Counted from the first letter of the stretch, positions 34,427 through 50,606 are shown. The stretch is DNA of 64,000 nucleotides from Candidatus Aminicenantia bacterium (GCA_041479905.1 JBGOYY010000003.1:16516-80515), one strand, 5' to 3'. Translations and numbers: made by a program. The notes: generated by a model from the sequence alone, not told the origin.

Positions 34427-34520
<94 letters not shown>

Positions 34521-35441: not shown

Positions 35442-35531
35442 TGGCGGAGGGAGAGGGATTCGAACCCCCGTTCCGGAGGACCGGAAAGCGGTTTTCAAGA
35501 CCGCCGCCTTCAACCACTCGGCCATCCCTCC
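35442..35531 (-). tRNA. tRNA-Ser (anticodon UGA), CCA encoded
   Basis: Acceptor GGAGGGA/TCCCTCC, anticodon stem GCGGT/ACCGC with loop CTTGAAA, a long variable arm and T-loop TTCGAAT. Confidence 0.92.
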
Positions 35532-35540
35532 GTCTTATTG

Positions 35541-36880
<1,340 letters not shown>

Positions 36881-37825: not shown

Positions 37826-38706
37826 GCAAACCCCTCGAAGGCGTCTACGCCGCCCTAACCACCCCCTTCGCCGGGGACGAGATCGCGGCGGACAAGCTCC
37901 GGGACAACGTCCAAAAGTACAATCGCACGGACCTCGCGGGATATCTCGTCCTCGGCTCGACCGGGGAGAGCGTCTCCCTGACGGATGGGGAATCGTTACA
38001 ACTCGTCGAAGCCGTCGTCGCGGCCGCCACGCCGGAAAAAAAGATACTCGTCGGGACGGCCCGCGAATCGACCAAGGGCACGATCGACTTCACCAACAGC
38101 CTGGCCGGCCGCGGGATCGCCGCGGCCCTCGTCCGGCCGCCCTCCTACTTCAAGTCGAAGATGACGCGCGAGGCGCTTAAAACGCACTATTGGGCCGTGG
38201 CCGAGGCGAGCAAGCTGCCGGTCCTCATCTACAACATGCCCCAGAACACCGGCATTTCCCTCGAGCCCCAGCTCATTATCGATCTGGCCCCGCATCCGAA
38301 CATCATCGGGCTCAAGGAGAGTTCGGGCAGTCTGGCCTTCCTGGGCGAGGTCGTCCGCGAAGTGCCCGACCGTTTCCATTACTTCCTGGGTTCGGGGCAC
38401 GTCATCTACCCGGGCCTGGAGATGGGGGCGTGCGGCGCCATCCTGGCCGTGGCCAACGCCGCGCCGGAGATGAGCGCCGAGATCTTCAGGCTGTTCAAGG
38501 CCGGGAAGAAAGACGAAGCCCGCCGGCTCCAACTCGACCTCGTCCCCCTCAACAAGGCGCTGATGGAAGTTTACGGCATCGCCGGGCTCAAGTATGCCCA
38601 GGACCTCCGGGGCTATTACGGCGGGCCGGCCCGGCTTCCGCTTCTCCCGGTCGGGGAGCAGGCGAAGCGGGATATCGCCGCCCTGCTCAAGAAAATGGGC
38701 TTGTAA
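37822..38706 (+). CDS. dihydrodipicolinate synthase/N-acetylneuraminate lyase family protein
   Basis: The TTG start overlaps the upstream stop and AAGGAGAG lies upstream. GSTGE, IYNMP and GLKESSG (Schiff-base Lys) motifs. Confidence 0.8.
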   Translation: MSKPLEGVYAALTTPFAGDEIAADKLRDNVQKYNRTDLAGYLVLGSTGESVSLTDGESLQLVEAVVAAATPEKKILVGTARESTKGTIDFTNSLAGRGIAAALVRPPSYFKSKMTREALKTHYWAVAEASKLPVLIYNMPQNTGISLEPQLIIDLAPHPNIIGLKESSGSLAFLGEVVREVPDRFHYFLGSGHVIYPGLEMGACGAILAVANAAPEMSAEIFRLFKAGKKDEARRLQLDLVPLNKALMEVYGIAGLKYAQDLRGYYGGPARLPLLPVGEQAKRDIAALLKKMGL

Positions 38707-38725
38707 ATCCGGCAGGCGCGGCAGG

Positions 38726-38750
38726 AAAAAAAAGCGACCGTGCACCCTGC
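38726..38750 (-). terminator. intrinsic terminator formed by the SRP RNA terminal helix plus U8
   Basis: GCACGGTCGC is followed by TTTTTTTT on the minus strand. Confidence 0.6.
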
Positions 38751-39007
38751 TCCGACAGCACTCTCCCTGCGTGTCCCGAGCCGCCGGCTCAGGCGAGGCT
38801 GACTGCCGCACAAGGGACCGTCCCGTTGCCGCTGCTACCTTCCGGTCCTGACGGAGTTCGCGGGAAGCCCTTCGCGCAGGGCCCCGGCCTTCAACGCCAC
38901 GTGCAAGGGCACCGGCCAGAAAGAGGGAAGCCTCGGCAGGGGATTCGACCCCACTGGAGCGGATTGTGGGCCACAGGGCACCGCTACCTCCCCGTCTAGC
39001 ACGGTCG
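38730..39007 (-). ncRNA. ffs: signal recognition particle RNA, long (Alu-domain, Bacillus-type) form
   Basis: The minus strand carries three matching regions. The Alu-domain 5' region is GACGGGGAGGUAGCGGUGCCCUG...CAAUCCGCUCCAG...GGGGUCGAAUCCCC. The S-domain core is GUCAGGACCGGAAGGUAGCAGC. The 5'/3' closing helix is CGACCGUGC/GCACGGUCG, followed by U8. TATAAT lies 6 nt upstream of the predicted 5' end. Confidence 0.9.
38975..39000. repeat. 26-nt exact direct repeat, copy 1 (inside the 5' part of the SRP RNA gene)
   Basis: AGGGCACCGCTACCTCCCCGTCTAGC is identical to 40368-40393. Confidence 0.95.
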
Positions 39008-39013
39008 ATCCCT

Positions 39014-39019
39014 ATTATA
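39014..39019 (-). promoter_or_regulatory. -10 hexamer (TATAAT) of the SRP RNA gene
   Basis: The minus strand reads GTATAATAGGGATCGACCGTGC. The hexamer is correctly spaced from the first base of the terminal helix. Confidence 0.5.
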
Positions 39020-39115
39020 CATTTTTTCTGATCATCCCGCCTCTCATCCCGGCATTTTACGCCCCGGCCTCTTACCAGTTCTTACAGACGGCCGGCGCTG
39101 ATACCCAAGTTGATT

Positions 39116-39529
39116 CTAACGATCTGACTGTTTCGCAAAGACGTATGAAAAGGGTATTGCTATCAAGTCTCCAATGATATAGACGGCGAAAAACACGACA
39201 TACGCTATCACATAGACCTGAAATTTGCCCGCAATCAGAACAGGGAGCAAAACACCAATGAACCAGACCACCTTATAGCTCAGTTGTAACAACAAAACTG
39301 GCGAATATTTTAGAGGAGACCGGAGACCTAATATGGATAGGAGGCCGAACGCAACCCAGACGCTGCCACAGATTCCAAAAACGATAGGATCTTGACTCGG
39401 CCAGCCAAAGATAGATCGTACGATACTTGGGATTAGAATTATTCCCAAACCTGATCCCCCTGCATGAATGATGGTGAAAATATACATTCCCTTGAGCCAC
39501 CCCCACCTAACATTCATTTCTCTGGACAT
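39116..39529 (-). CDS. small 4-TM membrane protein, hypothetical (AT-rich cassette)
   Basis: 137 aa with four hydrophobic helices. GC is clearly below the flanks. Confidence 0.6.
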   Translation of the reverse strand: MSREMNVRWGWLKGMYIFTIIHAGGSGLGIILIPSIVRSIFGWPSQDPIVFGICGSVWVAFGLLSILGLRSPLKYSPVLLLQLSYKVVWFIGVLLPVLIAGKFQVYVIAYVVFFAVYIIGDLIAIPFSYVFAKQSDR

Positions 39530-39571
39530 TTTTTCCCCTTTCGTTAGTTAGATAGATACTGACTCAACCAA

Positions 39572-39991
39572 TCAGCCGCCTCCCTTGTGGGGGAGGAACA
39601 AATCCTTTAGACGAATCTCATCACTTATCAATGTCAGCCCGATATAGAGAATCGACCAAAGTAAGTCAACAATGCCAGTCCACAAGAATGTCTTCGGAAA
39701 ACCTGGGATGCCGAGAATATAAGCAAACAACAAAACCACATAGAAGATCCTTCCTATGGTCACACAACCTATATTTAAAAGATAACGTCGAATGTTGAAA
39801 GCGGAGAGGATTTGCAAGTAGGCAAAGCAAAACAAAAATGATGCAATGAATATGGCGTAGAAACGGTGAACCGGTGGCTCTGTAAAGACCGTTCCGATCA
39901 TAAATAGGTAAACGAGTCCTGCAATGATGTCCCATATACCGCTTAAAAAGAAAGTAATCGACAAAGGCTTTGTCGATTTTATTTTTTTCAC
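39572..39991 (-). CDS. small 4-TM membrane protein, hypothetical (AT-rich cassette)
   Basis: The GTG start at 39991 is preceded by AAGGAGG. 139 aa, with size and topology similar to the neighbouring gene. The GC-rich 5' extension of the ORF track (to 40351) is probably not coding. Confidence 0.55.
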   Translation of the reverse strand: MKKIKSTKPLSITFFLSGIWDIIAGLVYLFMIGTVFTEPPVHRFYAIFIASFLFCFAYLQILSAFNIRRYLLNIGCVTIGRIFYVVLLFAYILGIPGFPKTFLWTGIVDLLWSILYIGLTLISDEIRLKDLFLPHKGGG

Positions 39992-40367
39992 AATGACCTC
40001 CTTAAATTCCTTTTTCGCAACGCGCACAAATCCGGCCCACAAGGCTTGGAACCGATGCCACCCCTCACAAAATGATGATATCGCCGGCCACGAGTCGTAG
40101 TCAAGAACCAAAAAAACTACCAGAACAGGGCCTTCCCCCTGGATGACTGCTCCGCGCGGCTGAGGAACTGCCCGGACGACGGCAGACCGCCTCCCTTCTT
40201 GAGATGACCCGCTATTCGTACTCCCCGCTCCCGCGGCCGTCATCAGGGCCGCCTGTTCGAAGACGTGGGCGAATTGATTTCCAACCCCTCCCCTGCTATC
40301 CTTGGCCCTTGAGATCCGGTCTTTACGCGATCGCGCCGAGGGAGGAATCATGAATCTGAAAAACGTA

Positions 40368-40393
40368 GGGCACCGCTACCTCCCCGTCTAGCG
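40368..40393. repeat. 26-nt exact direct repeat, copy 2 (orphan fragment of the SRP RNA 5' region)
   Basis: Identical to 38975-39000. Flanked by the 9-nt inverted repeat CTGAAAAAC / GTTTTTCAG. Confidence 0.95.
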
Positions 40394-40404
40394 AGGACAG
40401 CGAC

Positions 40405-41427
40405 ATGTTTTTCAGGGAGGGAACTCGCTTGCGCGCAGGGCGAAAATTCGGTTCGTTCGTTCTTGCCCTGGCCTTGTGGGGCGTTTCCCTTGCCGGTCAG
40501 GCAGGTCTCGGAAAGGGCCGTTTGACCGGTTTCGTTAAAAATGAGGATGGGCGTCCCATTGCTTCAGCAAAGGTTGTTCTCCGATTCTTGGAATCAGAAA
40601 AGCTCAGCAGCAGAGGAAATGTGACCAGGGCCACGAGCAGGGAATCGGCGGTATTCGAGACCAAGGCCAACAAGAAAGGGAGTTGGAATTACAACGGCCT
40701 AGCCGCGGGAACATGGGAGATTACGGCCTCCGCGGAGGGATTCCATTCGGCCAGCCGGGAGTGCAGGATCTATCAGCTCCAGGACAACCCTAGAGTGGAA
40801 TTGGTCCTGGAGGAGCTGGAGCAAGGCACGAACACCCTGGCGCCCGGTCTTCTTGAAAGAGCCGATGGCCTGGCCATCCTGCAAAAATACGACGAAGCGA
40901 TGGCCCTCTACAGGCAATATCTCGAACAGGACCCCGAAGCCGTCATGGTGATGCTCGCGATCGCCGATTGCTTGATGGAGAAGGGCGACCTGGAAGAAGC
41001 CGTCAAGCATTATCAGATTTTTGTCGATAAAACCTCGGCAGATCCCCGCGATAAGGCGCTGACGGCCCGGGCCATGGCCCGAATGGGAGAATGCTTCTTG
41101 AAACAGGGCGATCGGCTATCTGCCGTCAAGTATTGGAAGGCTTCGGTCGTCCTGTCCCCAATCGACGCAGAAGTACCTTTCAATTTGGGAGAGGTCCTTT
41201 TCGCCGAACGAAATCTGGAGGAGGCGGCCCGATATTATCGGATCTCGGCCGAGATCTCACCGGGCTGGGGTGAGCCCCATTACAAGCTTGGGCTCATCTC
41301 CATGAGCCAGGAAAATTACGACCTGGCCAGAAAATCCTTCCAAAAGCTTATTGAGATCGAACCATACTCGGCGCTCGCCGATAAGGCAAAGGGGATCATC
41401 AAGGAGCTCGACAGGCTCAAGAAGTAG
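40405..41427 (+). CDS. secreted protein with a carboxypeptidase-regulatory-like domain and TPR repeats
   Basis: Signal peptide FVLALALWGVSLAGQA. The GRLTGFVKNEDGRPIASAKVVL beta-sandwich start is followed by several TPR-like repeats. An alternative TTG start lies at 40429. Confidence 0.7.
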   Translation: MFFREGTRLRAGRKFGSFVLALALWGVSLAGQAGLGKGRLTGFVKNEDGRPIASAKVVLRFLESEKLSSRGNVTRATSRESAVFETKANKKGSWNYNGLAAGTWEITASAEGFHSASRECRIYQLQDNPRVELVLEELEQGTNTLAPGLLERADGLAILQKYDEAMALYRQYLEQDPEAVMVMLAIADCLMEKGDLEEAVKHYQIFVDKTSADPRDKALTARAMARMGECFLKQGDRLSAVKYWKASVVLSPIDAEVPFNLGEVLFAERNLEEAARYYRISAEISPGWGEPHYKLGLISMSQENYDLARKSFQKLIEIEPYSALADKAKGIIKELDRLKK

Positions 41428-41483
41428 GACTCCCAGTTGATTTCAGGCCGCTCCCCTGTTATCTTTCGCCACAAAATCCGGTC

Positions 41484-41900
41484 ATGACGCATCGGCGTGA
41501 ATGGAGGATCAAAGGTATCATCCGGGCCGCCTACGAGTCGGGCCTGAACTACTTCGACACGGCCGAGGAGTACCCGGGTCACCATCGTGTCCTGGCCAAG
41601 GTCATTAAAGACATGGACCGCAAGAAGGTCTTCATCGCGACCAAGCTCGAGGCCACCAAAGGCGAAACCAAAGAGGGCTTCCTCAAGAGGGCCCGCAAGG
41701 CCCTGGAGGAACTCCAGACCGAATACATCGACTGCCTGATGATGCACTGCCCGGAGAAGGCCGAGACGCTCGCGGACATCCCCGGCGTCCGGGCCGACGT
41801 CTGCCGCGACTGCGGCGCTCCCTGCGAAGCTGCCTGCCCCTACGGCGTCCCGGTCCAGGGCATGCTCCTCGTCGCCCACGATACCCTCTCCATGCCCTGA
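41484..41900 (+). pseudogene. aldo/keto reductase (Fe-S C-terminal type) remnant
   Basis: IRAAYESGLNYFDTAEEY...IDCLMMH matches AKR N-terminal blocks. It joins directly to a CxxCxxxCxxxCP Fe-S tail. About 35 N-terminal residues and roughly 150-180 central residues of typical family members are absent. Confidence 0.5.
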
Positions 41901-41993
41901 TCGCACGCGTCCGTCAGTCCGGTTCGGACTTTCCTTGACAGTCCCGGGCCCGGGTGATAGAAAGACCTCTTCGATCTTCCGCAGGAGGTCTCC

Positions 41994-44624
41994 ATGAATA
42001 AATCTCCGATCATGACCCGGACGCTGCTCGTCCTGACTCTCGTCTTCCTGGCCGTCGGCCGACTCGCGGCCCAGACGCCGCCGGACAAGTTCCTCGGCCA
42101 CAAGGTCGGCGAGGACCGCAAGCTTGCCGATTACTCCCAGATCAAGGCCTACTTCGAGAAGCTGGCCCAGGAATCCCCGAAGATCAAGCTCTTCACGATC
42201 GGCGAGTCGGTGCTCAAGAAGCCCATGATCATGGCCGCCATATCGACCCCCGAGAACCTGGCCAAGCTCGACCGCTGGCGGGAGATCACCCACAAGCTCC
42301 GCGACCCGCGCGTGACGCCCGTCGAGGAGGCCCGCAAGCTGGCCAAAGAAGGCAAGGCCATCGTCCTCATCACCTGTTCCCTCCACGCGACGGAGATCGC
42401 CGCCTCCCAGATGTCGATGGAGCTCGCCTACGACCTCGTCACCGGCCGGACCTTCTTCGACGCCGGAAAGATCCTCAACGACGTCATCGTCCTCCTCGTC
42501 CCGAGCCATAACCCGGACGGCAACCAGATGGTCGTCGATTGGTACCGGAAATACGTCGGCACCCAGTACGAGGGCGGCAACATGCCCTGGCTCTACCATC
42601 ATTACGCCGGGCACGACAATAACCGCGACTGGTACATGTTCAACCTGCCCGAGACAAGGGCCGTGACCAAGGTCCTCTACCACGACTGGCTGCCCCAGAT
42701 CCACGTCGACGAGCACCAGCAGGGCAGTAACGGCGCCCGGCTCTTCATCCCGCCGTTCATGGACCCGCCCCTGCCCAACATCCAACCCATGGTCTGGCGG
42801 GGCGTCAACCTCATCGGGACGGAGATGGGCTACGACCTCCAGAAGCACGGTTACAGCGGCGTCGTCAACGGACGGTCCTATACGGCCTGGTGGATCGGCG
42901 CCTGCGACGACACGTCCTGGCTCCACAACGTCATGGGCATCCTCAGCGAGGCGGCCTCGGTCCGCGTCGCCAGCCCCATCTCCATCGAGCCCACCGAAAT
43001 CCCGACGAGCTACTACGAGAAGCGGATGGACTTCGTCGATCCCTGGCCGGGCGGCTGGTGGCGGCTCCGCGACATCGTCGACTACGAACTCGTCCTGTCG
43101 AAGAGCATGATCAAGACGGCCGGCCTCCACAAGGAGGACCTCCTCTTCAACTTCTACCAGATGTACAAGAACTCCATCGAGAAGGTGGACAAGGGCCAGC
43201 CCTACGCCTTCGTCATCCCGGCCCTCCAGCGGGACACGCCGACGACGCTCAAGATGCTCGAGGTCCTGCAGATGGGCGGCGTCGAGGTCCATCAGGCCAA
43301 GGCCGACTTCGTCGCCGGAGAAAGGCTCTACGGCGCCGGCTCGTTCGTCGTCAAGACCGCCCAGCCCTACAAGACCTACGCCTGGGCGCTTCTTGAAAAA
43401 CAGAAGTACCCCGACATGAGGCAGTACCCCGGCGGCCCGCCTGTCCCCCCTTACGACAACGCCGCCTGGACTCTGCCCCTCCAGATGGGCGTCGCCTGCG
43501 ACGAGGTCGACGAGGCCTTCGAGGCCAAGCTCGAAAAGCTCGACAAGGTCCCCTACCCCAAGGCCCCTGCGAAACAGGGCCAGGGCGCCTACGTCCTCCT
43601 GAACTCCCAGGTCAACGCGTCCTACGCGGCCGCCTTCGCCCTGCTCAAAGACAAGGCGGAGATGTGGCGCACGACAGCGACGGTGAAATTGAAGGGCGCC
43701 GACGTTCCGGCCGGGAGCTTCATCGTCAAGAACTCGGCCGAGGTCGGGAAGTCCCTGCCGGCGCTTCTCGATAAACTCCACCTGACCGTCCTCGACCTCG
43801 ACGACGTCGCCGCCCTGCCGAAGGCGTCCCTCAAGTCACCGCGTATCGGGCTTTTCCAGTCCTGGCGGGGCAATGCTGACGAGGGTTGGACGCGCTACGT
43901 TTTCGACGACATGGGCATCCTCTTCAAGACCCTGCACAACGACGACATCAAGGGAACGAAAGACAAGAAGGCCGACCTGCGGGCCGACTACGACGTCATC
44001 GTCTTCGCCGACGAGAATATCAACACCATCAAGGGCACCCGGCCCGGCGCGACGCCCGGCGCGGGCGGCGCCGAGTCGCCCATGGCCCGGATGTTCCGTC
44101 AAGGCGCCGTGCCTCCCGAGTACGAGGGGGGGATCGGACAGGAAGGCGTCGACGCCCTCAAGGCCTTCGTCGAGAAGGGCGGCATCCTGGTCGCTCTCAA
44201 CGGCGCATCGGAGTTCGCCATCGCCGAATTCGGCGCGCCGGCGCGCAACACCCTGACCGGCATCGACCGGACGAAGTTCTTCTGCCCGACCTCGATCCTC
44301 AGGATCCTCGTCGACAACGAGACGCCCATCGGCTACGGCATGCCCAAGGAGGCCGCGGCCATGTTCGTCAACAGCCTGGCCCTGGACACATTCTCGCCGC
44401 CCTTCGATTGGAACCGCAAGGTCGTTGCCGCCTATCCCGAGGACGAGGTCCTGCTCAGCGGCTGGCTCTTAGGCGAGGAGTACCTGACCCGCAAGGCCGC
44501 CGTCGTCGATACGAAATGGAAGGCCGGCCGGATCATCCTCATCGGGATCAGGTGTCAGAACCGGGCCCAGGCCCACGGAACGTACAAGTTCCTCTTGAAC
44601 GCCCTGCTCTATCCGGAGATGTGA
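41994..44624 (+). CDS. M14 family zinc carboxypeptidase-like protein, secreted, large
   Basis: Signal peptide. HATE zinc-ligand motif and SHNPDGN. GGAGG upstream of the ATG. Confidence 0.75.
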   Translation: MNKSPIMTRTLLVLTLVFLAVGRLAAQTPPDKFLGHKVGEDRKLADYSQIKAYFEKLAQESPKIKLFTIGESVLKKPMIMAAISTPENLAKLDRWREITHKLRDPRVTPVEEARKLAKEGKAIVLITCSLHATEIAASQMSMELAYDLVTGRTFFDAGKILNDVIVLLVPSHNPDGNQMVVDWYRKYVGTQYEGGNMPWLYHHYAGHDNNRDWYMFNLPETRAVTKVLYHDWLPQIHVDEHQQGSNGARLFIPPFMDPPLPNIQPMVWRGVNLIGTEMGYDLQKHGYSGVVNGRSYTAWWIGACDDTSWLHNVMGILSEAASVRVASPISIEPTEIPTSYYEKRMDFVDPWPGGWWRLRDIVDYELVLSKSMIKTAGLHKEDLLFNFYQMYKNSIEKVDKGQPYAFVIPALQRDTPTTLKMLEVLQMGGVEVHQAKADFVAGERLYGAGSFVVKTAQPYKTYAWALLEKQKYPDMRQYPGGPPVPPYDNAAWTLPLQMGVACDEVDEAFEAKLEKLDKVPYPKAPAKQGQGAYVLLNSQVNASYAAAFALLKDKAEMWRTTATVKLKGADVPAGSFIVKNSAEVGKSLPALLDKLHLTVLDLDDVAALPKASLKSPRIGLFQSWRGNADEGWTRYVFDDMGILFKTLHNDDIKGTKDKKADLRADYDVIVFADENINTIKGTRPGATPGAGGAESPMARMFRQGAVPPEYEGGIGQEGVDALKAFVEKGGILVALNGASEFAIAEFGAPARNTLTGIDRTKFFCPTSILRILVDNETPIGYGMPKEAAAMFVNSLALDTFSPPFDWNRKVVAAYPEDEVLLSGWLLGEEYLTRKAAVVDTKWKAGRIILIGIRCQNRAQAHGTYKFLLNALLYPEM

Positions 44625-48259: not shown

Positions 48260-48325
48260 GGGACAAGCTTAACTCATTGCACCGGGGCCGGTAAAGGGAC
48301 CTCTAAAAATGTCCGGGCGGCCGGC

Positions 48326-48709
48326 TCAGGCCCCGAGGAGCGCGCAGGCCCGCTCGATGTCCGAAACGTCCATGACGACCGTGACCTGGCTGCCCTTGCG
48401 GGCCAGCGTTCCGTAGCAGTATTCGATGTTGATCCCTTCGTCCCCGAGCTTGGTCGTCATCTCGGCCAGGGCGCCGGGCCTGTTCTCGAGGTCGATCTTG
48501 AGCACGTCGCGAAGCTCCGTCGTGTAGTTGAGCTTCGCCAGGAGCTTGACGGCCTTGTTGAGGTTCTGGACGCAGAGCTTGGCGGTGTCGTGGAACACGC
48601 CGATTGCGTCGATGTTGATCTCGTTCTCGGCCAGGTAACTGCACAAGTCACCAAGTTGGGACGGCTTGTTATCCAGGATGACGTAGATTTCGGTGATCCG
48701 TTCGATCAT
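48326..48709 (-). CDS. ACT domain protein (tandem ACT)
   Basis: Two beta-alpha-beta-beta-alpha-beta units (VILDNKPSQLGDL... and LENRPGALAEM...). Confidence 0.75.
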   Translation of the reverse strand: MIERITEIYVILDNKPSQLGDLCSYLAENEINIDAIGVFHDTAKLCVQNLNKAVKLLAKLNYTTELRDVLKIDLENRPGALAEMTTKLGDEGINIEYCYGTLARKGSQVTVVMDVSDIERACALLGA

Positions 48710-48861
48710 GCGTGACCCCCTAATCGTCCAGGATTTTCTTACCCCTATTCTGTATTAATATCATGAACTTCCCTGCAACGCAAACCAACGATCCATCGTC
48801 CACTTCGCGCAGGAATGTTCCCAGAGGAGGCCGCTGAATTAGGGGGCCGAGGGGCGTCGTC

Positions 48862-48936
48862 GGAGGGAGCGGCGGGGAGCGGAGTCTTCGTAGCGACCAG
48901 CAGAATTGTGGCGGAGTACCCGAAGCTACAATTCTG
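48862..48936 (+). repeat. 75-nt structured element, copy 1 (GGAGCGG boxes plus hairpin)
   Basis: GGAGGGAGCGGCGGGGAGCGGAG...CAGAATTGT-[GGCGGAGTACCCGAAGCT]-ACAATTCTG. About 76% identical to the reverse complement of 48987-49061. Confidence 0.8.
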
Positions 48937-48986
48937 GTAAATATCTGAAAAGAAATTTCTTTCCTGGGCTTGCTTAAGATGTTTCC

Positions 48987-49061
48987 TAGAAGTGCGGCTC
49001 CGGGTACTCCGCCGCACTTCTATCGGTCGCTCCCCAGAGTCCGCTCCCTGCCGCTCCTCCC
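48987..49061 (-). repeat. 75-nt structured element, copy 2 (inverted orientation)
   Basis: The minus strand reads GGGAGGAGCGGCAGGGAGCGGAC...TAGAAGTGCGG-[CGGAGTACCCGGAG]-CCGCACTTCTA. Confidence 0.8.
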
Positions 49062-49187
49062 ATCGAATCCGGCCCGGGAAGGCGTAAGAAATCACCGCAG
49101 CGGACAGAGACGATGCCCGAGGCCCCTCTGCGGCCGACGGCGGGAACACCCTGAGCGGAAAAGGGTGGACGATGGCCGGTCTGGGAG

Positions 49188-50606
49188 TCAGTCGAAAATC
49201 TTTCCGGGATTCATGATCCCGTTCGGGTCGAAGACGCGCTTGATGCCGCGCATGAGCTCGATCTGCCGCTCGTCGAGGACGATGGAGAGGTACGGCTTCT
49301 TGACCAGGCCGATGCCGTGCTCGCCGGATATGACCCCGCCGCGTTCGCGGCAGTCCCGGAAGAGCTCATCCCGAACAAGGTCGGCCTTGTCCTTCCATTC
49401 GCTCTCGGGCACGGGCACCATTTTGCCGTCCTCATAGCGGGCCTTCATGATGTGGGTGTGGACGTTGCCGTCCGCGGCGTGGCCGAAGGTCGGCAACCAC
49501 ATGCCGTACCGGGCGGCGACCTCTCTGACCTTGCGGACGTGCCCGGCCACTTCAGCCCGGGGGACGGAGATGTCGAGGATCTCGACCGTCCCGGCCTTGA
49601 TGGCTTCGTAGATCTTCGAACGGATGTCCAGGACCTCGTCCTGCTTGCTCGGCGTGTCGGCGACGAAAACGTCGATGGCGCCTTTCTCCAGGCAGACTTC
49701 GGCGACGGCCTCGGACAGCCGGTCCATTTCCGCCTCGGATGGGGCGTCGAGAATGACCAGAAGATGGGTCTTCCCCAGCTTGGTCGGCCACTTTTTCCGG
49801 ATGTGCTCTTCGGTCAGGGTGATGGGTTCGACCTCGAGGAACTCGACGGCGAGCGGCACGACCCCCCGTTTCATGATGAGCGGAACGGTTTCGAGGGCCG
49901 GCTCGAGTTCGGCGAAGGGCACGACGAACGAGCGCATGATGCCGGGCTTGGCTTTGACGTGGATGACGGCCTTGGTGACGACGCCGAGCGTCCCCTCGGA
50001 GCCGATGAGCAGGTGCATGAGGTTGTAGCCCGTGCTCGATTTTTCAAGCTTTCCGCCGAGCTTGAGAATCTCGCCCGTGGGCGTGACGACCTCGAGGCCC
50101 CGGACGTAATTGCGGATGGTGCCGTATTTGACGGCCCGGCTGCCCCCGGCGTTGGTGGCGATGAGTCCGCCCATCATGGCGCTCTCGTCGCCGGGATGGG
50201 GCGGGAAATAGAGGCCTCCCTCTTCGACGGCCCGGGTGAAATCGGACAGGCGGACGCCCGCTTCGGTCACGGCCATCTGGTTGTCGGCGTCGATCTCGAG
50301 GACCCGGTTCATCCGCTCGAGGGAGAGGACGATCCCGCCGTGGACCGGGACGCAGCCGCCGCAGAGCCCGGTTGCCCCGCCCCGCGGGGTCACCGGGATG
50401 GCCCGGGTGTTGGCGATGCGCAGGACCGCCGCGACTTCATCCGTCGTCCCCGGCTTGACGACGACGTCGGGCTCATGGGCGATCTCGCGGAGCGAGAATT
50501 CGTCGTGGCCGTAATCGATGATCCTTTCCGGGTCGGAGAGGACGTTTTCCGGGCCGACGACGGCCTCGAGGGATCCTCTGACGGCAGGCGTTATCTTCGA
50601 GGTCAT
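49188..50606 (-). CDS. FAD-linked oxidase (GlcD / D-lactate dehydrogenase family)
   Basis: FAD-binding PCMH-type domain (PRGGATGLCGG) and C-terminal GEHGIG. Confidence 0.85.
   Translation of the reverse strand: MTSKITPAVRGSLEAVVGPENVLSDPERIIDYGHDEFSLREIAHEPDVVVKPGTTDEVAAVLRIANTRAIPVTPRGGATGLCGGCVPVHGGIVLSLERMNRVLEIDADNQMAVTEAGVRLSDFTRAVEEGGLYFPPHPGDESAMMGGLIATNAGGSRAVKYGTIRNYVRGLEVVTPTGEILKLGGKLEKSSTGYNLMHLLIGSEGTLGVVTKAVIHVKAKPGIMRSFVVPFAELEPALETVPLIMKRGVVPLAVEFLEVEPITLTEEHIRKKWPTKLGKTHLLVILDAPSEAEMDRLSEAVAEVCLEKGAIDVFVADTPSKQDEVLDIRSKIYEAIKAGTVEILDISVPRAEVAGHVRKVREVAARYGMWLPTFGHAADGNVHTHIMKARYEDGKMVPVPESEWKDKADLVRDELFRDCRERGGVISGEHGIGLVKKPYLSIVLDERQIELMRGIKRVFDPNGIMNPGKIFD

What the first reader, a model, noticed from the sequence alone, without database searches (positions are those of the whole stretch)
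48862..49061. Convergent pair of 75-nt elements with a covariation-supported hairpin and phased GGAGCGG boxes: candidate novel structured RNA or recombination/regulatory site
In the 478-nt gap between the FAD-oxidase stop and the ACT-gene start, 48862-48936 (plus strand) and 48987-49061 (minus strand) are about 76% identical (57/75 by hand alignment). They face each other across a 50-nt AT-rich spacer containing the palindrome AAAGAAATTTCTTT.

Each copy contains:
- two GGAGCGG boxes spaced 10 nt apart
- a hairpin whose loop core GGCGGAGTACCCG is identical in both copies

The hairpin stems differ: CAGAATTGT/ACAATTCTG in copy 1 and TAGAAGTGCGG/CCGCACTTCTA in copy 2. Three stem positions changed on both sides so that pairing is kept (C-G to U-A, U-A to G-C, U-A to C-G), and a G-U became G-C. 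Compensatory change within each arm argues for selection on the local hairpin, not just on a long inverted repeat.

I do not recognise the motif as any known RNA family, MITE or terminator, and no U-tract follows the hairpins. A minus-strand transcript reading out of the oxidase gene would contain copy 2 in sense and copy 1 in antisense, so the two could also pair into a roughly 75-bp duplex.

Alternatives are two convergent sRNA genes, a MITE with long terminal inverted repeats, or an iteron-like protein-binding or recombination site (inverted boxes around an AT-rich core).
Basis: seen in the sequence. Interest (0 to 1): 0.7.

Follow-up and report, generated by a model that had tools for sequence, protein, structure and literature searches.

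The report
Copy of a mosaic palindromic repeat
The two facing 75-base elements are real and their hairpins are conserved, but they are one cassette of a hairpin-rich repeat family scattered across many loci in Aminicenantes-type genomes, so this is a small mobile-DNA-like element and not a one-off regulatory RNA or recombination site.

Summary
Arms 48857-48949 and 48974-49066 form a 93-nt, 76% inverted repeat, and each arm has its own 12-bp hairpin.

It is not a unique locus:
- The pair is the inner cassette of a ~400-nt nested palindrome (~48787-49187). That palindrome fills the gap between the FAD-oxidase and ACT genes and is absent from the same site in relatives (gaps of 82-84 nt).
- The 84-nt hairpin module occurs 63 times in 48 fetched loci.
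- The convergent pair recurs in 10 different gene contexts with a 24-29 nt spacer.
- The hairpin stem shows strong compensatory variation (96.5% paired; 9 of 12 pairs changed on both sides).
- Cassettes differ at orthologous sites with identical flanks. A 105-nt module shows filled and empty sites with a 2-bp duplication.
- There is no Rfam family, promoter, terminator, viral or plasmid match, and no nearby transposase.
- Core orientation relative to flanking genes is about random.

Best reading: a non-autonomous mosaic repeat, comparable to REPIN/BIME and MITE elements, in an uncultivated lineage. It is a new member of a known kind and of modest interest.

The parts
48787..49187 (.). Whole mosaic palindromic element: the DNA present here but absent from the orthologous site in relatives.
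   Evidence: In L003 and L005 the FAD-oxidase stop and the ACT start are 84 and 82 nt apart, with the same flanking genes, against 478 nt here. The sequence shared with the empty sites ends at 48786 (GGTTTGCGTTG on the minus strand). The region folds as one long hairpin, z about -10.
48793..48803 (.). Outermost inverted-repeat layer, left half (CCATCGTCCAC). Its partner is 49165-49175 (GTGGACGATGG).
   Evidence: 11 nt, 100% complementary (I9). It is homologous to the GGAATCCAC...GTGGATTCC layer of other copies.
49165..49175 (.). Outermost inverted-repeat layer, right half.
   Evidence: I9.
48806..48841 (.). Outer layer, left (CGCGCAGGAATGTTCCCAGAGGAGGCCGCTGAATTA). It pairs with 49127-49157.
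   Evidence: I3. The same moderately conserved layer (GCGCAGGGGTGTTCCCAGAGGAGGCCGCGG ... CCGCGGCCGACGGCGGGAATACCCCGAGCG) appears in many copies.
49127..49157 (.). Outer layer, right (TCTGCGGCCGACGGCGGGAACACCCTGAGCG).
48842..48865 (+). Left arm of the family's conserved core (GGGGGCCGAGGGGCGTCGTCGGAG).
   Evidence: Matches the family profile (nhmmer hit 48793-48870). Consensus from 47 copies. The same junction is seen in all 10 pair-bearing loci.
48866..48949 (+). 84-nt hairpin module, subtype 1: two GGAGCGG boxes, GTAGCGACCAG, stem CAGAATTGTGGC / GCTACAATTCTG at 48901-48912 / 48925-48936, loop GGAGTACCCGAA, tail GGTAAATATCTGAA.
48950..48973 (.). AT-rich spacer between the two modules (holds AAAGAAATTTCTTT).
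   Evidence: The spacer is 24-29 nt in all 12 convergent pairs found.
48974..49057 (-). 84-nt hairpin module, subtype 2: stem TAGAAGTGCGGC / GCCGCACTTCTA at 49011-49022 / 48987-48998 (plus-strand coordinates), loop GGAGTACCCGGA.
   Evidence: In every pair, subtype 1 faces subtype 2.
49058..49126 (+). Right arm of the conserved core (TCCCATCGAATCCGGCCCGGGAAGGCGTAAGAAATCACCGCAGCGGACAGAGACGATGCCCGAGGCCCC). It includes the 25-nt signature at 49061-49085 and the ~51 nt that have no counterpart in the left arm.
   Evidence: nhmmer hit 49054-49158, E = 3e-28. The signature hit the 120-stretch limit in metagenome contigs.
49188..50606 (-). Upstream gene (not part of the element): FAD-linked oxidase, GlcD-like.
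   Evidence: Pfam FAD_binding_4 and FAD-oxidase_C.
48326..48709 (-). Downstream gene (not part of the element): ACT-domain protein. Its ~77-nt upstream region (48710-48786) is shared with the empty sites.
   Evidence: Pfam ACT/ACT_8. Alignment by eye.

Best explanation
The feature is one copy of a dispersed, non-coding mosaic repeat family found in Aminicenantes-type (Acidobacteriota) genomes.

Architecture. The family has a conserved frame: left arm GGGGCYGAGGGG..TCGTC-GGAG and right arm CTCC-TCCCATCGRATCCGGNCCGGGAAGGCGT.AAGAATCACCGCAGCGGACGGAGACGA..CCCGAGGCCCC. This frame is wrapped in variable outer inverted-repeat layers and holds one of several interchangeable inner cassettes. In the window the cassette is a convergent doublet of two diverged 84-nt hairpin modules. 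The arrangement resembles a REPIN, that is, two REP hairpins in inverted orientation.

Shown here:
- The family is multi-copy and dispersed.
- It is present or absent at orthologous sites.
- Cassettes differ between near-identical strains.
- The hairpin stem keeps pairing through compensatory changes.

Inferred:
- Copies spread as non-autonomous mobile DNA, using a transposase encoded elsewhere.
- Copies are reshuffled by recombination or gene conversion through their conserved arms.
- The hairpins are kept because the single-stranded form is what is recognised. I think ssDNA seen by an HUH/RAYT-like enzyme is more likely than RNA, but this is the weakest step.

At this locus the element is most likely a passenger in the FAD-oxidase/ACT intergenic region. 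At most it would add a long hairpin to any read-through transcript.
For: 1. Dispersal:
- The 17-nt loop pattern found real copies on three contigs of one MAG (L018, L036, L104) and in two further MAGs (L112, L125), all in unrelated contexts.
- Profile searches found about 153 element clusters in 945 kb of fetched loci, roughly 28 beyond those selected by the pattern. That is about one per 30 kb, and the 64-kb window holds one.

2. The pair is a recurrent unit. There are 12 convergent pairs in 10 distinct flanking contexts, with a 24-29 nt spacer and always subtype 1 facing subtype 2.

3. Insertion polymorphism at this locus, with synteny kept:
- L003 (90% protein identity) and L005 (85%) are empty.
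- L002 (95%) has only a ~50-nt hairpin.
- L004 (86%) has the same frame with a different interior.

4. Turnover:
- L157 and L199, and L127 and L224, have identical or near-identical flanks but a 47-nt cassette versus the 197-nt pair.
- A 105-nt module shows filled and empty sites at GAAT^CACC with a 2-bp AT duplication (L208/L233, L158/L213).
- At one aminoacyl-tRNA-synthetase locus, close relatives (at least 93% identity) carry the element in opposite orientations and with different modules.

5. Structure. The hairpin is 96.5% paired, with 9 of 12 pairs changed on both sides and 78 such cells; 0 of 500 shuffles reach these values, and slid controls give at most 45% paired. G-U/U-G outnumber A-C/C-A 21 to 7 on the GGAGCGG strand.

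6. No strand link to genes. Core orientation relative to co-directional genes is 21 antisense to 15 sense, and many copies lie between divergent genes.

7. No Rfam family, promoter or terminator. No viral or plasmid copies.
Against: - No transposase or other recurrent gene lies next to any of about 125 loci. Neighbours are housekeeping genes, and a crude HUH-motif screen of 131 adjacent ORFs was negative. The mobilising enzyme is therefore hypothetical.
- No target-site duplication was found for the whole element or for the pair. Only the 105-nt module shows one.
- The ~140-nt core is over 90% conserved across loci. This could reflect function and not only recent spread.
- Compensatory changes in short DNA palindromes can also arise by template-switch correction, without selection.
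- The G-U excess and a 7:2 sense bias of solo modules fit an RNA role equally well.
- The cassette differences come from short-read metagenome assemblies, so chimeric joins through the repeat cannot be fully excluded.
- Copy number per genome is extrapolated, not counted.
Confidence: 0.72

Rival explanations
1. A family of functional structured RNA elements. These could be cis-acting (3'-UTR stabiliser, processing or RNase III site, or terminator/insulator) or small RNA genes. They would be multi-copy because the function is needed at many operons, and the hairpin would be selected at the RNA level.
For: - Strong stem covariation.
- G-U wobbles are three times as common as A-C on one strand.
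- The frame stem has conserved tandem G.A mismatches on the same strand (read).
- The core is highly conserved and can be drawn with a pseudoknot.
- Solo modules are 7 sense to 2 antisense between co-directional genes.
- The element sits 3' of a stop codon in the window.
Against: - Core orientation relative to transcription is about random (21 to 15), and many copies lie between divergent genes.
- In the pair, one module is always antisense.
- No promoter-like or terminator-like site and no U-tract.
- No Rfam match.
- The element is absent from orthologous sites in close relatives, and cassettes differ between near-identical strains, so it is dispensable at a given locus.
- In the window copy, the 5' halves of the two putative core helices are missing.
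- The core alignment has almost no covariation to support any fold (2 of 34 pairs).
Confidence: 0.15
2. A double-stranded DNA protein-binding or site-specific recombination site, such as iteron-like phased GGAGCGG boxes around an AT-rich core, or an attC/dif-like site.
For: - The GGAGCGGCRGGGAGCGGA boxes are the best-conserved part of the module (at least 90% at most positions) and start 10 nt apart.
- They sit as inverted termini around an AT-rich centre.
- Cassette differences have fixed GGAG...CTCC borders in one pair of loci.
Against: - No recombinase, replication or partition gene lies nearby in any locus.
- Copies are scattered singly among housekeeping genes, not in arrays.
- Conserved boxes at the ends of a mobile unit are just as expected for transposase binding.
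- The border of the differing segment is not the same in the second pair of loci (L127/L224), which fits homologous gene conversion better than site-specific exchange.
- Stem covariation indicates that pairing matters, not the duplex sequence.
Confidence: 0.06
3. A classical TIR-type MITE: an internally deleted IS moved by a DDE transposase, with fixed terminal inverted repeats and direct target-site duplications.
For: - Size of 200-400 nt, non-coding, multi-copy and intergenic.
- Highly conserved inverted termini on the pair (GGAGCGGCRGGGAGCGG) and on the frame.
- The 105-nt module shows a 2-bp duplication at filled versus empty sites.
Against: - No target-site duplication was seen for the pair or the whole element.
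- The ends of the whole element are not fixed, because the outer layers vary.
- No parent IS with the same termini was found in about 0.95 Mb of related loci.
- Stems covary instead of keeping one sequence.
- Modules also occur solo, in tandem and in other combinations.
Confidence: 0.07

Closest known systems
REP sequences and REPINs (REP doublets mobilised by RAYT transposases), Pseudomonas and Enterobacteria
   Same: - Short extragenic hairpin units with conserved unpaired flanks.
- Stems that keep pairing while their sequence varies.
- Frequent arrangement as two units in inverted orientation with a fixed short spacer, which fold into a longer hairpin.
- Many dispersed copies, with no coding capacity.

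Definitions taken from PMC3116915, PMC3337134 and PMC3733652 (abstracts).
   Different: - The unit is longer: 84 nt, with a 12-bp stem and a 12-13-nt loop.
- No invariant GTAG or CGTC tag abuts the stem. GTAG is present only in subtype 1 and lies 9 nt away.
- No RAYT gene was found.
- The doublet is embedded as a cassette in a larger conserved frame.
- Estimated density is lower (about one per 30 kb).
BIMEs of E. coli and BOX elements of Streptococcus pneumoniae (mosaic/modular intergenic repeats)
   Same: Built from a small set of modules combined in different numbers and orders. Intergenic, multi-copy, and fold into extended stem-loops. (From my own knowledge of these families.)
   Different: - No sequence relation to these families.
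- Modules here are nested symmetrically, palindrome within palindrome, and are not strung linearly.
- Different phylum, known only from uncultivated organisms.
Bacterial MITEs such as Correia/NEMIS (Neisseria) and ERIC/IRU (Enterobacteria)
   Same: - 100-400-nt non-coding imperfect palindromes with conserved inverted termini.
- Inserted close to gene ends.
- Presence/absence polymorphism between relatives.
- ERIC also has long forms with internal insertions at fixed sites. (From my own knowledge, and the review PMC3184786 listed.)
   Different: - No target-site duplication was demonstrated for the main element.
- Outer ends are variable.
- No parent IS is known.
Rfam families (release 15)
   Same: Only the generic long-hairpin shape. 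The best hit is MIR1858 at 54 bits against a gathering score of 137.
   Different: No family reaches its threshold on the window copy or on 15 other copies.

Membership tests
REP/REPIN (RAYT-associated) | Short imperfect palindrome (about 20-40 nt) forming a stem-loop | tested here: met
   12-bp stem with a 12-13-nt loop, about 37 nt in all. 96.5% of cells are paired across 52 copies.
REP/REPIN (RAYT-associated) | Conserved unpaired GTAG (or CGTC) tetranucleotide directly at one end of the palindrome | tested here: not met
   The consensus 5' of the stem is G[G/T/A]AGCGACC, followed by 3 variable nt. GTAG occurs only in subtype 1 and lies 9 nt from the stem. Definition from PMC3733652.
REP/REPIN (RAYT-associated) | Doublets in inverted orientation with a constant spacer | tested here: met
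   12 convergent pairs in 10 contexts, spacer 24-29 nt.
REP/REPIN (RAYT-associated) | High copy number within one genome | tested here: inconclusive
   At least 3 contigs of one MAG carry the exact loop pattern. Density is about one per 30 kb, extrapolated from the flanks of fetched loci. No whole genome could be scanned.
REP/REPIN (RAYT-associated) | A cognate RAYT (Y1/HUH transposase) gene flanked by the repeats | tested here: inconclusive
   None among the ORFs next to about 125 loci. A single-copy gene elsewhere in the genome would have been missed.
MITE (TIR type) | Small (under about 500 bp), non-coding, multi-copy | tested here: met
   About 400 nt here and 200-330 nt for canonical copies. 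ORFs across the element have no Pfam match. Copy numbers.
MITE (TIR type) | Defined terminal inverted repeats | tested here: inconclusive
   The pair and the frame have conserved inverted termini. The outermost layers of the whole element differ between copies.
MITE (TIR type) | Direct target-site duplication | tested here: inconclusive
   A 2-bp AT duplication is seen for the 105-nt module only. None is recognisable for the window element against the empty sites L003 and L005, but the flanks have diverged.
MITE (TIR type) | A parent IS sharing the termini | tested here: inconclusive
   None found in about 0.95 Mb of related loci. Whole genomes were not searchable.
Known structured RNA family (Rfam 15) | Covariance-model score at or above the family's gathering threshold | tested here: not met
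Intrinsic terminator | GC-rich hairpin followed by a U-tract | tested here: not met
   No terminator-like site on either strand of 48300-49600.
Integron attC array | Imperfect palindromes with RYYYAAC/GTTRRRY cores, arranged between cassettes next to an integrase | tested here: not met
   Copies occur singly among housekeeping genes. Neither core motif is present at the ends of the consensus (read).

The most novel reading that the evidence does not exclude
The family is more than selfish DNA. Its ~140-nt core (over 90% conserved across loci, able to form a pseudoknot, with conserved tandem G.A mismatches on one strand) and its swappable hairpin cassettes would act as a strand-specific single-stranded nucleic acid. 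Two forms of this reading are open. One is a new class of multi-copy structured RNA whose apical cassette is exchanged between strains. The other is a new kind of fold-back mobile element that inserts at the apex of existing palindromes, building nested hairpins, and is driven by an as yet unknown enzyme.
Probability: 0.12. Interest if true: 0.7.

Novelty: new member of a known kind. Interest (0 to 1): 0.3.

Why it matters
For this window, the result removes a candidate 'novel riboregulator' and replaces it with a repeat annotation.

More widely:
- It documents a mosaic, nested palindromic repeat family in Aminicenantes, an abundant but uncultivated sediment lineage. I found no description of such a family in the literature I could search.
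- These repeats break assemblies, since several copies sit at contig ends.
- They create strain-level structural variation in intergenic regions.
- They give a natural data set for asking whether hairpin covariation in repeats comes from RNA, ssDNA recognition or palindrome-correcting mutation.
- If a cognate transposase is found, it would extend REPIN/RAYT-like systems to Acidobacteriota.

Tried and rejected
- Rfam at permissive thresholds on the window copy and 15 other copies gave only generic hairpin or microRNA noise.
- tRNA/tmRNA scan found nothing at the locus.
- No further copy in the 64-kb window by blastn-short, nhmmer or motif search.
- The genome-collection scan with the 17-nt loop pattern was mostly wasted.
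- Search for an autonomous partner. I clustered 2514 ORFs from all loci, ran Pfam on recurrent clusters and on ORFs lying between two element copies, and screened 131 adjacent ORFs for an HUH motif. All were housekeeping genes.
- Covariation test of the conserved core failed for lack of variation, and part of the core was fixed by my own search pattern.
- Orientation analysis used crude ORF-based gene calls. It mis-called a spurious ORF in the window itself, so only gross trends count.
- Viral contigs (two patterns) and plasmids gave no match.
- Literature searches found nothing on Aminicenantes repeats.
- Ideas considered and dropped: sigma-54 promoter, inverton, retron, attC site, hammerhead-like core, and a small ORF in the core. 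The sequence did not fit their consensus features, or no required neighbouring gene was present.

Full report
**1. Checking the observation**

The sequence is as described.
- The repeat finder reports inverted arms 48857-48949 and 48974-49066: 93 nt, 76% complementary, 24 nt apart. It also reports two local hairpins with 12-nt arms, 48901-48912/48925-48936 and 48987-48998/49011-49022.
- The 13-mer loop core is exact only at these two places in the window.
- The GGAGCGG boxes start 10 nt apart.
- This is far beyond chance. The gap's self-versus-reverse-complement score is 53, against 11 +/- 2.2 in shuffles. Either strand folds with z about -10.
Further collinear inverted repeats (I3, I6, I9; alignment) show that almost the whole 478-nt gap is one nested palindrome. 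The right arm carries about 51 extra nt.

**2. Context and source**

- The flanking genes are all on the minus strand: transketolase, SNase-like, FAD-linked oxidase (49188-50606), then the gap, then an ACT-domain protein (48326-48709), an HI0933-like flavoprotein and GH95.
- The window comes from contig JBGPRP010000001.1 of GCA_041489665.1.
- Several homologues of the oxidase at 81-85% identity are named Candidatus Aminicenantes by their sources.
- No Rfam family matches. MIR1858 scores 54 bits against a threshold of 137, which is a generic long hairpin.
- There is no promoter-like or terminator-like site.

**3. The orthologous site in relatives**

Synteny is the same in L003, L004 and L005; the L002 contig differs upstream and ends inside the ACT gene. 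The gap between the two genes varies as follows.

| Locus | Oxidase identity | Gap | Content |
|---|---|---|---|
| Window | - | 478 nt | Nested palindrome with the convergent pair |
| L002 | 95% | 143 nt | Only a ~50-nt hairpin |
| L003 | 90% | 84 nt | Empty |
| L004 | 86% | 494 nt | Same outer arms as the window, different palindromic interior |
| L005 | 85% | 82 nt | Empty |

- The sequence shared with the empty sites ends at 48786, and the stop codon of the oxidase is at 49188-49190. About 395 nt are therefore an insertion-type polymorphism.

**4. Dispersed relatives**

- A genome-collection scan with the loop pattern was mostly noise. It did find true copies on three contigs of one MAG (L018, L036, L104) and in two other MAGs (L112, L125), each in a different gene context.
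- These copies revealed a shared outer frame. A 25-nt signature from that frame (49061-49085 in the window) hit the 120-stretch limit in metagenome contigs, giving 127 instances with essentially no chance expectation.
- Most instances carry a 'canonical' form. Its ~140-nt core is over 90% conserved (consensus) and is flanked by less conserved inverted layers.
- Profile searches give about 153 element clusters in 945 kb of fetched DNA. About 28 of them were not selected by the pattern, which is roughly one per 30 kb. The 64-kb window holds exactly one.
- No copy was found in viral contigs or plasmids.

**5.

- nhmmer finds the module 63 times in 48 loci. It occurs solo, in tandem, next to a GGGGACA...TGTCCCC hairpin module, or as the convergent doublet.
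- The doublet occurs 12 times in 10 distinct flanking contexts. The spacer is always 24-29 nt and subtype 1 (stem CAGAATTG.GGC) always faces subtype 2 (stem TAGAAG.GCGGC). It always sits between GGAG and TCCCATCG of the frame.
- The two window copies therefore differ because two module subtypes diverged before the doublet spread. They did not diverge in place.

**6. The hairpin**

- On 52 distinct copies (alignment A3) the 12-bp stem is 96.5% paired.
- 9 of 12 pairs show changes on both sides, in 78 cells. No shuffle of 500 reaches the observed pairing or covariation score, and slid controls give 30-45% pairing.
- G-U/U-G cells outnumber A-C/C-A cells 21 to 7 on the GGAGCGG strand. This hints that this strand folds as a single strand, RNA or ssDNA.
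- Caveats: the copies are related, and short DNA palindromes can be 'corrected' by template switching, which mimics compensation.
- The loop is not universal. GGAGT-ACCCGRA (16 copies) alternates with GGAGCGRCTCGGA and others.

**7. Turnover**

- L157 and L199 have 100% identical flanks for hundreds of nt. Between GGAG and CTCCTCC one has a 47-nt cassette and the other the 197-nt doublet. L127 and L224 show the same difference with a slightly different left border.
- A 105-nt module shows clean filled and empty sites at GAAT^CACC with a 2-bp AT duplication (L208/L233, L158/L213).
- Upstream of one aminoacyl-tRNA-synthetase gene, relatives with at least 93% identical enzyme carry the element in opposite orientations and with different accessory modules.
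- These differences point to mobility plus recombination between copies. The chance of assembly chimeras must be kept in mind.

**8. What argues against an RNA gene or regulatory site**

- Core orientation relative to co-directional flanking genes is 21 antisense to 15 sense. A further 20 copies lie between divergent genes and 10 between convergent genes (crude gene calls).
- Solo modules are 7 sense to 2 antisense, which is too few to decide.
- The core alignment has almost no informative variation: 2 of 34 predicted pairs covary.
- In the window copy, the 5' halves of the two long putative core helices (GCGGTGATT and CCTTCCCGG) are replaced by the doublet. Whatever the canonical core folds into cannot form here.

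**9. No partner gene found**

Clustering 2514 ORFs from all loci, running Pfam on recurrent clusters and on ORFs lying between copies, and screening 131 adjacent ORFs for an HUH motif returned only housekeeping genes. The mobilising enzyme, if any, is encoded elsewhere.

**10. Verdict**

The finding is a real, well-structured sequence, but it is one copy of a mosaic palindromic repeat family. It works most like REPIN/BIME-type or MITE-type non-autonomous elements.
- Strict REP membership fails on the GTAG/CGTC tag.
- Strict MITE membership is unproven, because neither a target-site duplication nor a parent IS was found.

It is a new member of a known kind in a poorly studied phylum, of modest interest. 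The residual novel reading, a strand-specific functional core with swappable cassettes or a palindrome-apex-targeting mobile element, keeps about 0.12 probability.

Noticed in passing
L237, L244, L135 and about 45 other loci (canonical copies); consensus: The canonical 47-nt inner cassette (GGAGCATAAAGCGGTGATTTAGCC...) carries stop codons in all three frames of one strand (TAA, TGA, TAG within 16 nt). Its 5' part can pair with the frame's right arm (GCGGTGATT/AATCACCGC and CCTTCCCGG/CCGGGAAGG). Together with GGAGGGAG/CTCCTCC this would form a pseudoknot if it were RNA.
   Followed up: partly
L208 vs L233 and L158 vs L213; also L132, L139, L226, L036, L018, L242: A 105-nt module ((T)AAACCCATTCGACTCCCCGGCC...GGTTGGTGGCAGCGAACGT) is inserted at the same GAAT^CACC position of the frame's right arm. 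Filled and empty orthologous sites exist, with an apparent 2-bp AT duplication.
   Followed up: partly
L157 vs L199 and L127 vs L224: With identical or near-identical flanks, the inner cassette differs: a 47-nt canonical cassette versus the 197-nt convergent doublet. This looks like strain-level cassette exchange. An assembly chimera is not excluded.
   Followed up: partly
L229, L240, L243, L193, L180: Upstream of the same class II aminoacyl-tRNA-synthetase gene (at least 93% identical protein), the element is present in opposite orientations and with different outer layers and modules.
   Followed up: partly
Frame stem, e.g. window 48842-48860 with 49109-49126; all canonical copies: The closing stem has conserved tandem G.A/A.G mismatches (GGGGCYGAGGGG opposite CCCCGAGGCCCC). 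On the other strand these would be C.U/U.C. The same motif recurs in an outer layer of some copies (GGGGCGAGGGG ... CCCCGAGCCCC).
   Followed up: no
L002 4431-4481: The closest relative found (95% identical oxidase) has a ~50-nt hairpin (GGCTCGGGGCAATGCCCGGGCAGCG...GTCGTGCCGAGC) at the same intergenic site. Part of it (TGCCCGGGCAGCGTCC) recurs in the flanks of other family copies (L148, L179, L220). It may be another module or a remnant.
   Followed up: no
L112 (CAZGJS010000009.1): A contig of a MAG labelled 'uncultured Eubacteriales bacterium' carries a typical family copy (hairpin module plus GGGGAC hairpin). This suggests a mis-binned or mislabelled contig.
   Followed up: no
L104, L137, L197, L230, L207, L149 and others: Many copies lie within about 100 nt of a contig end, as expected if the repeat breaks short-read assemblies.
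   Followed up: no
window 34427-34520, 35442-35531, 35541-36821: Two tRNA-Ser genes (GCT and TGA anticodons) lie directly next to a seryl-tRNA synthetase gene, all on the minus strand.
   Followed up: partly
window 38000-42000: A stretch of lower G+C (0.55-0.58, against about 0.64 elsewhere). ORFs at 37996-38811, 38190-38999 and 39572-40351 have no Pfam match. A TPR/CarboxypepD_reg protein lies at 40405-41427.
   Followed up: partly
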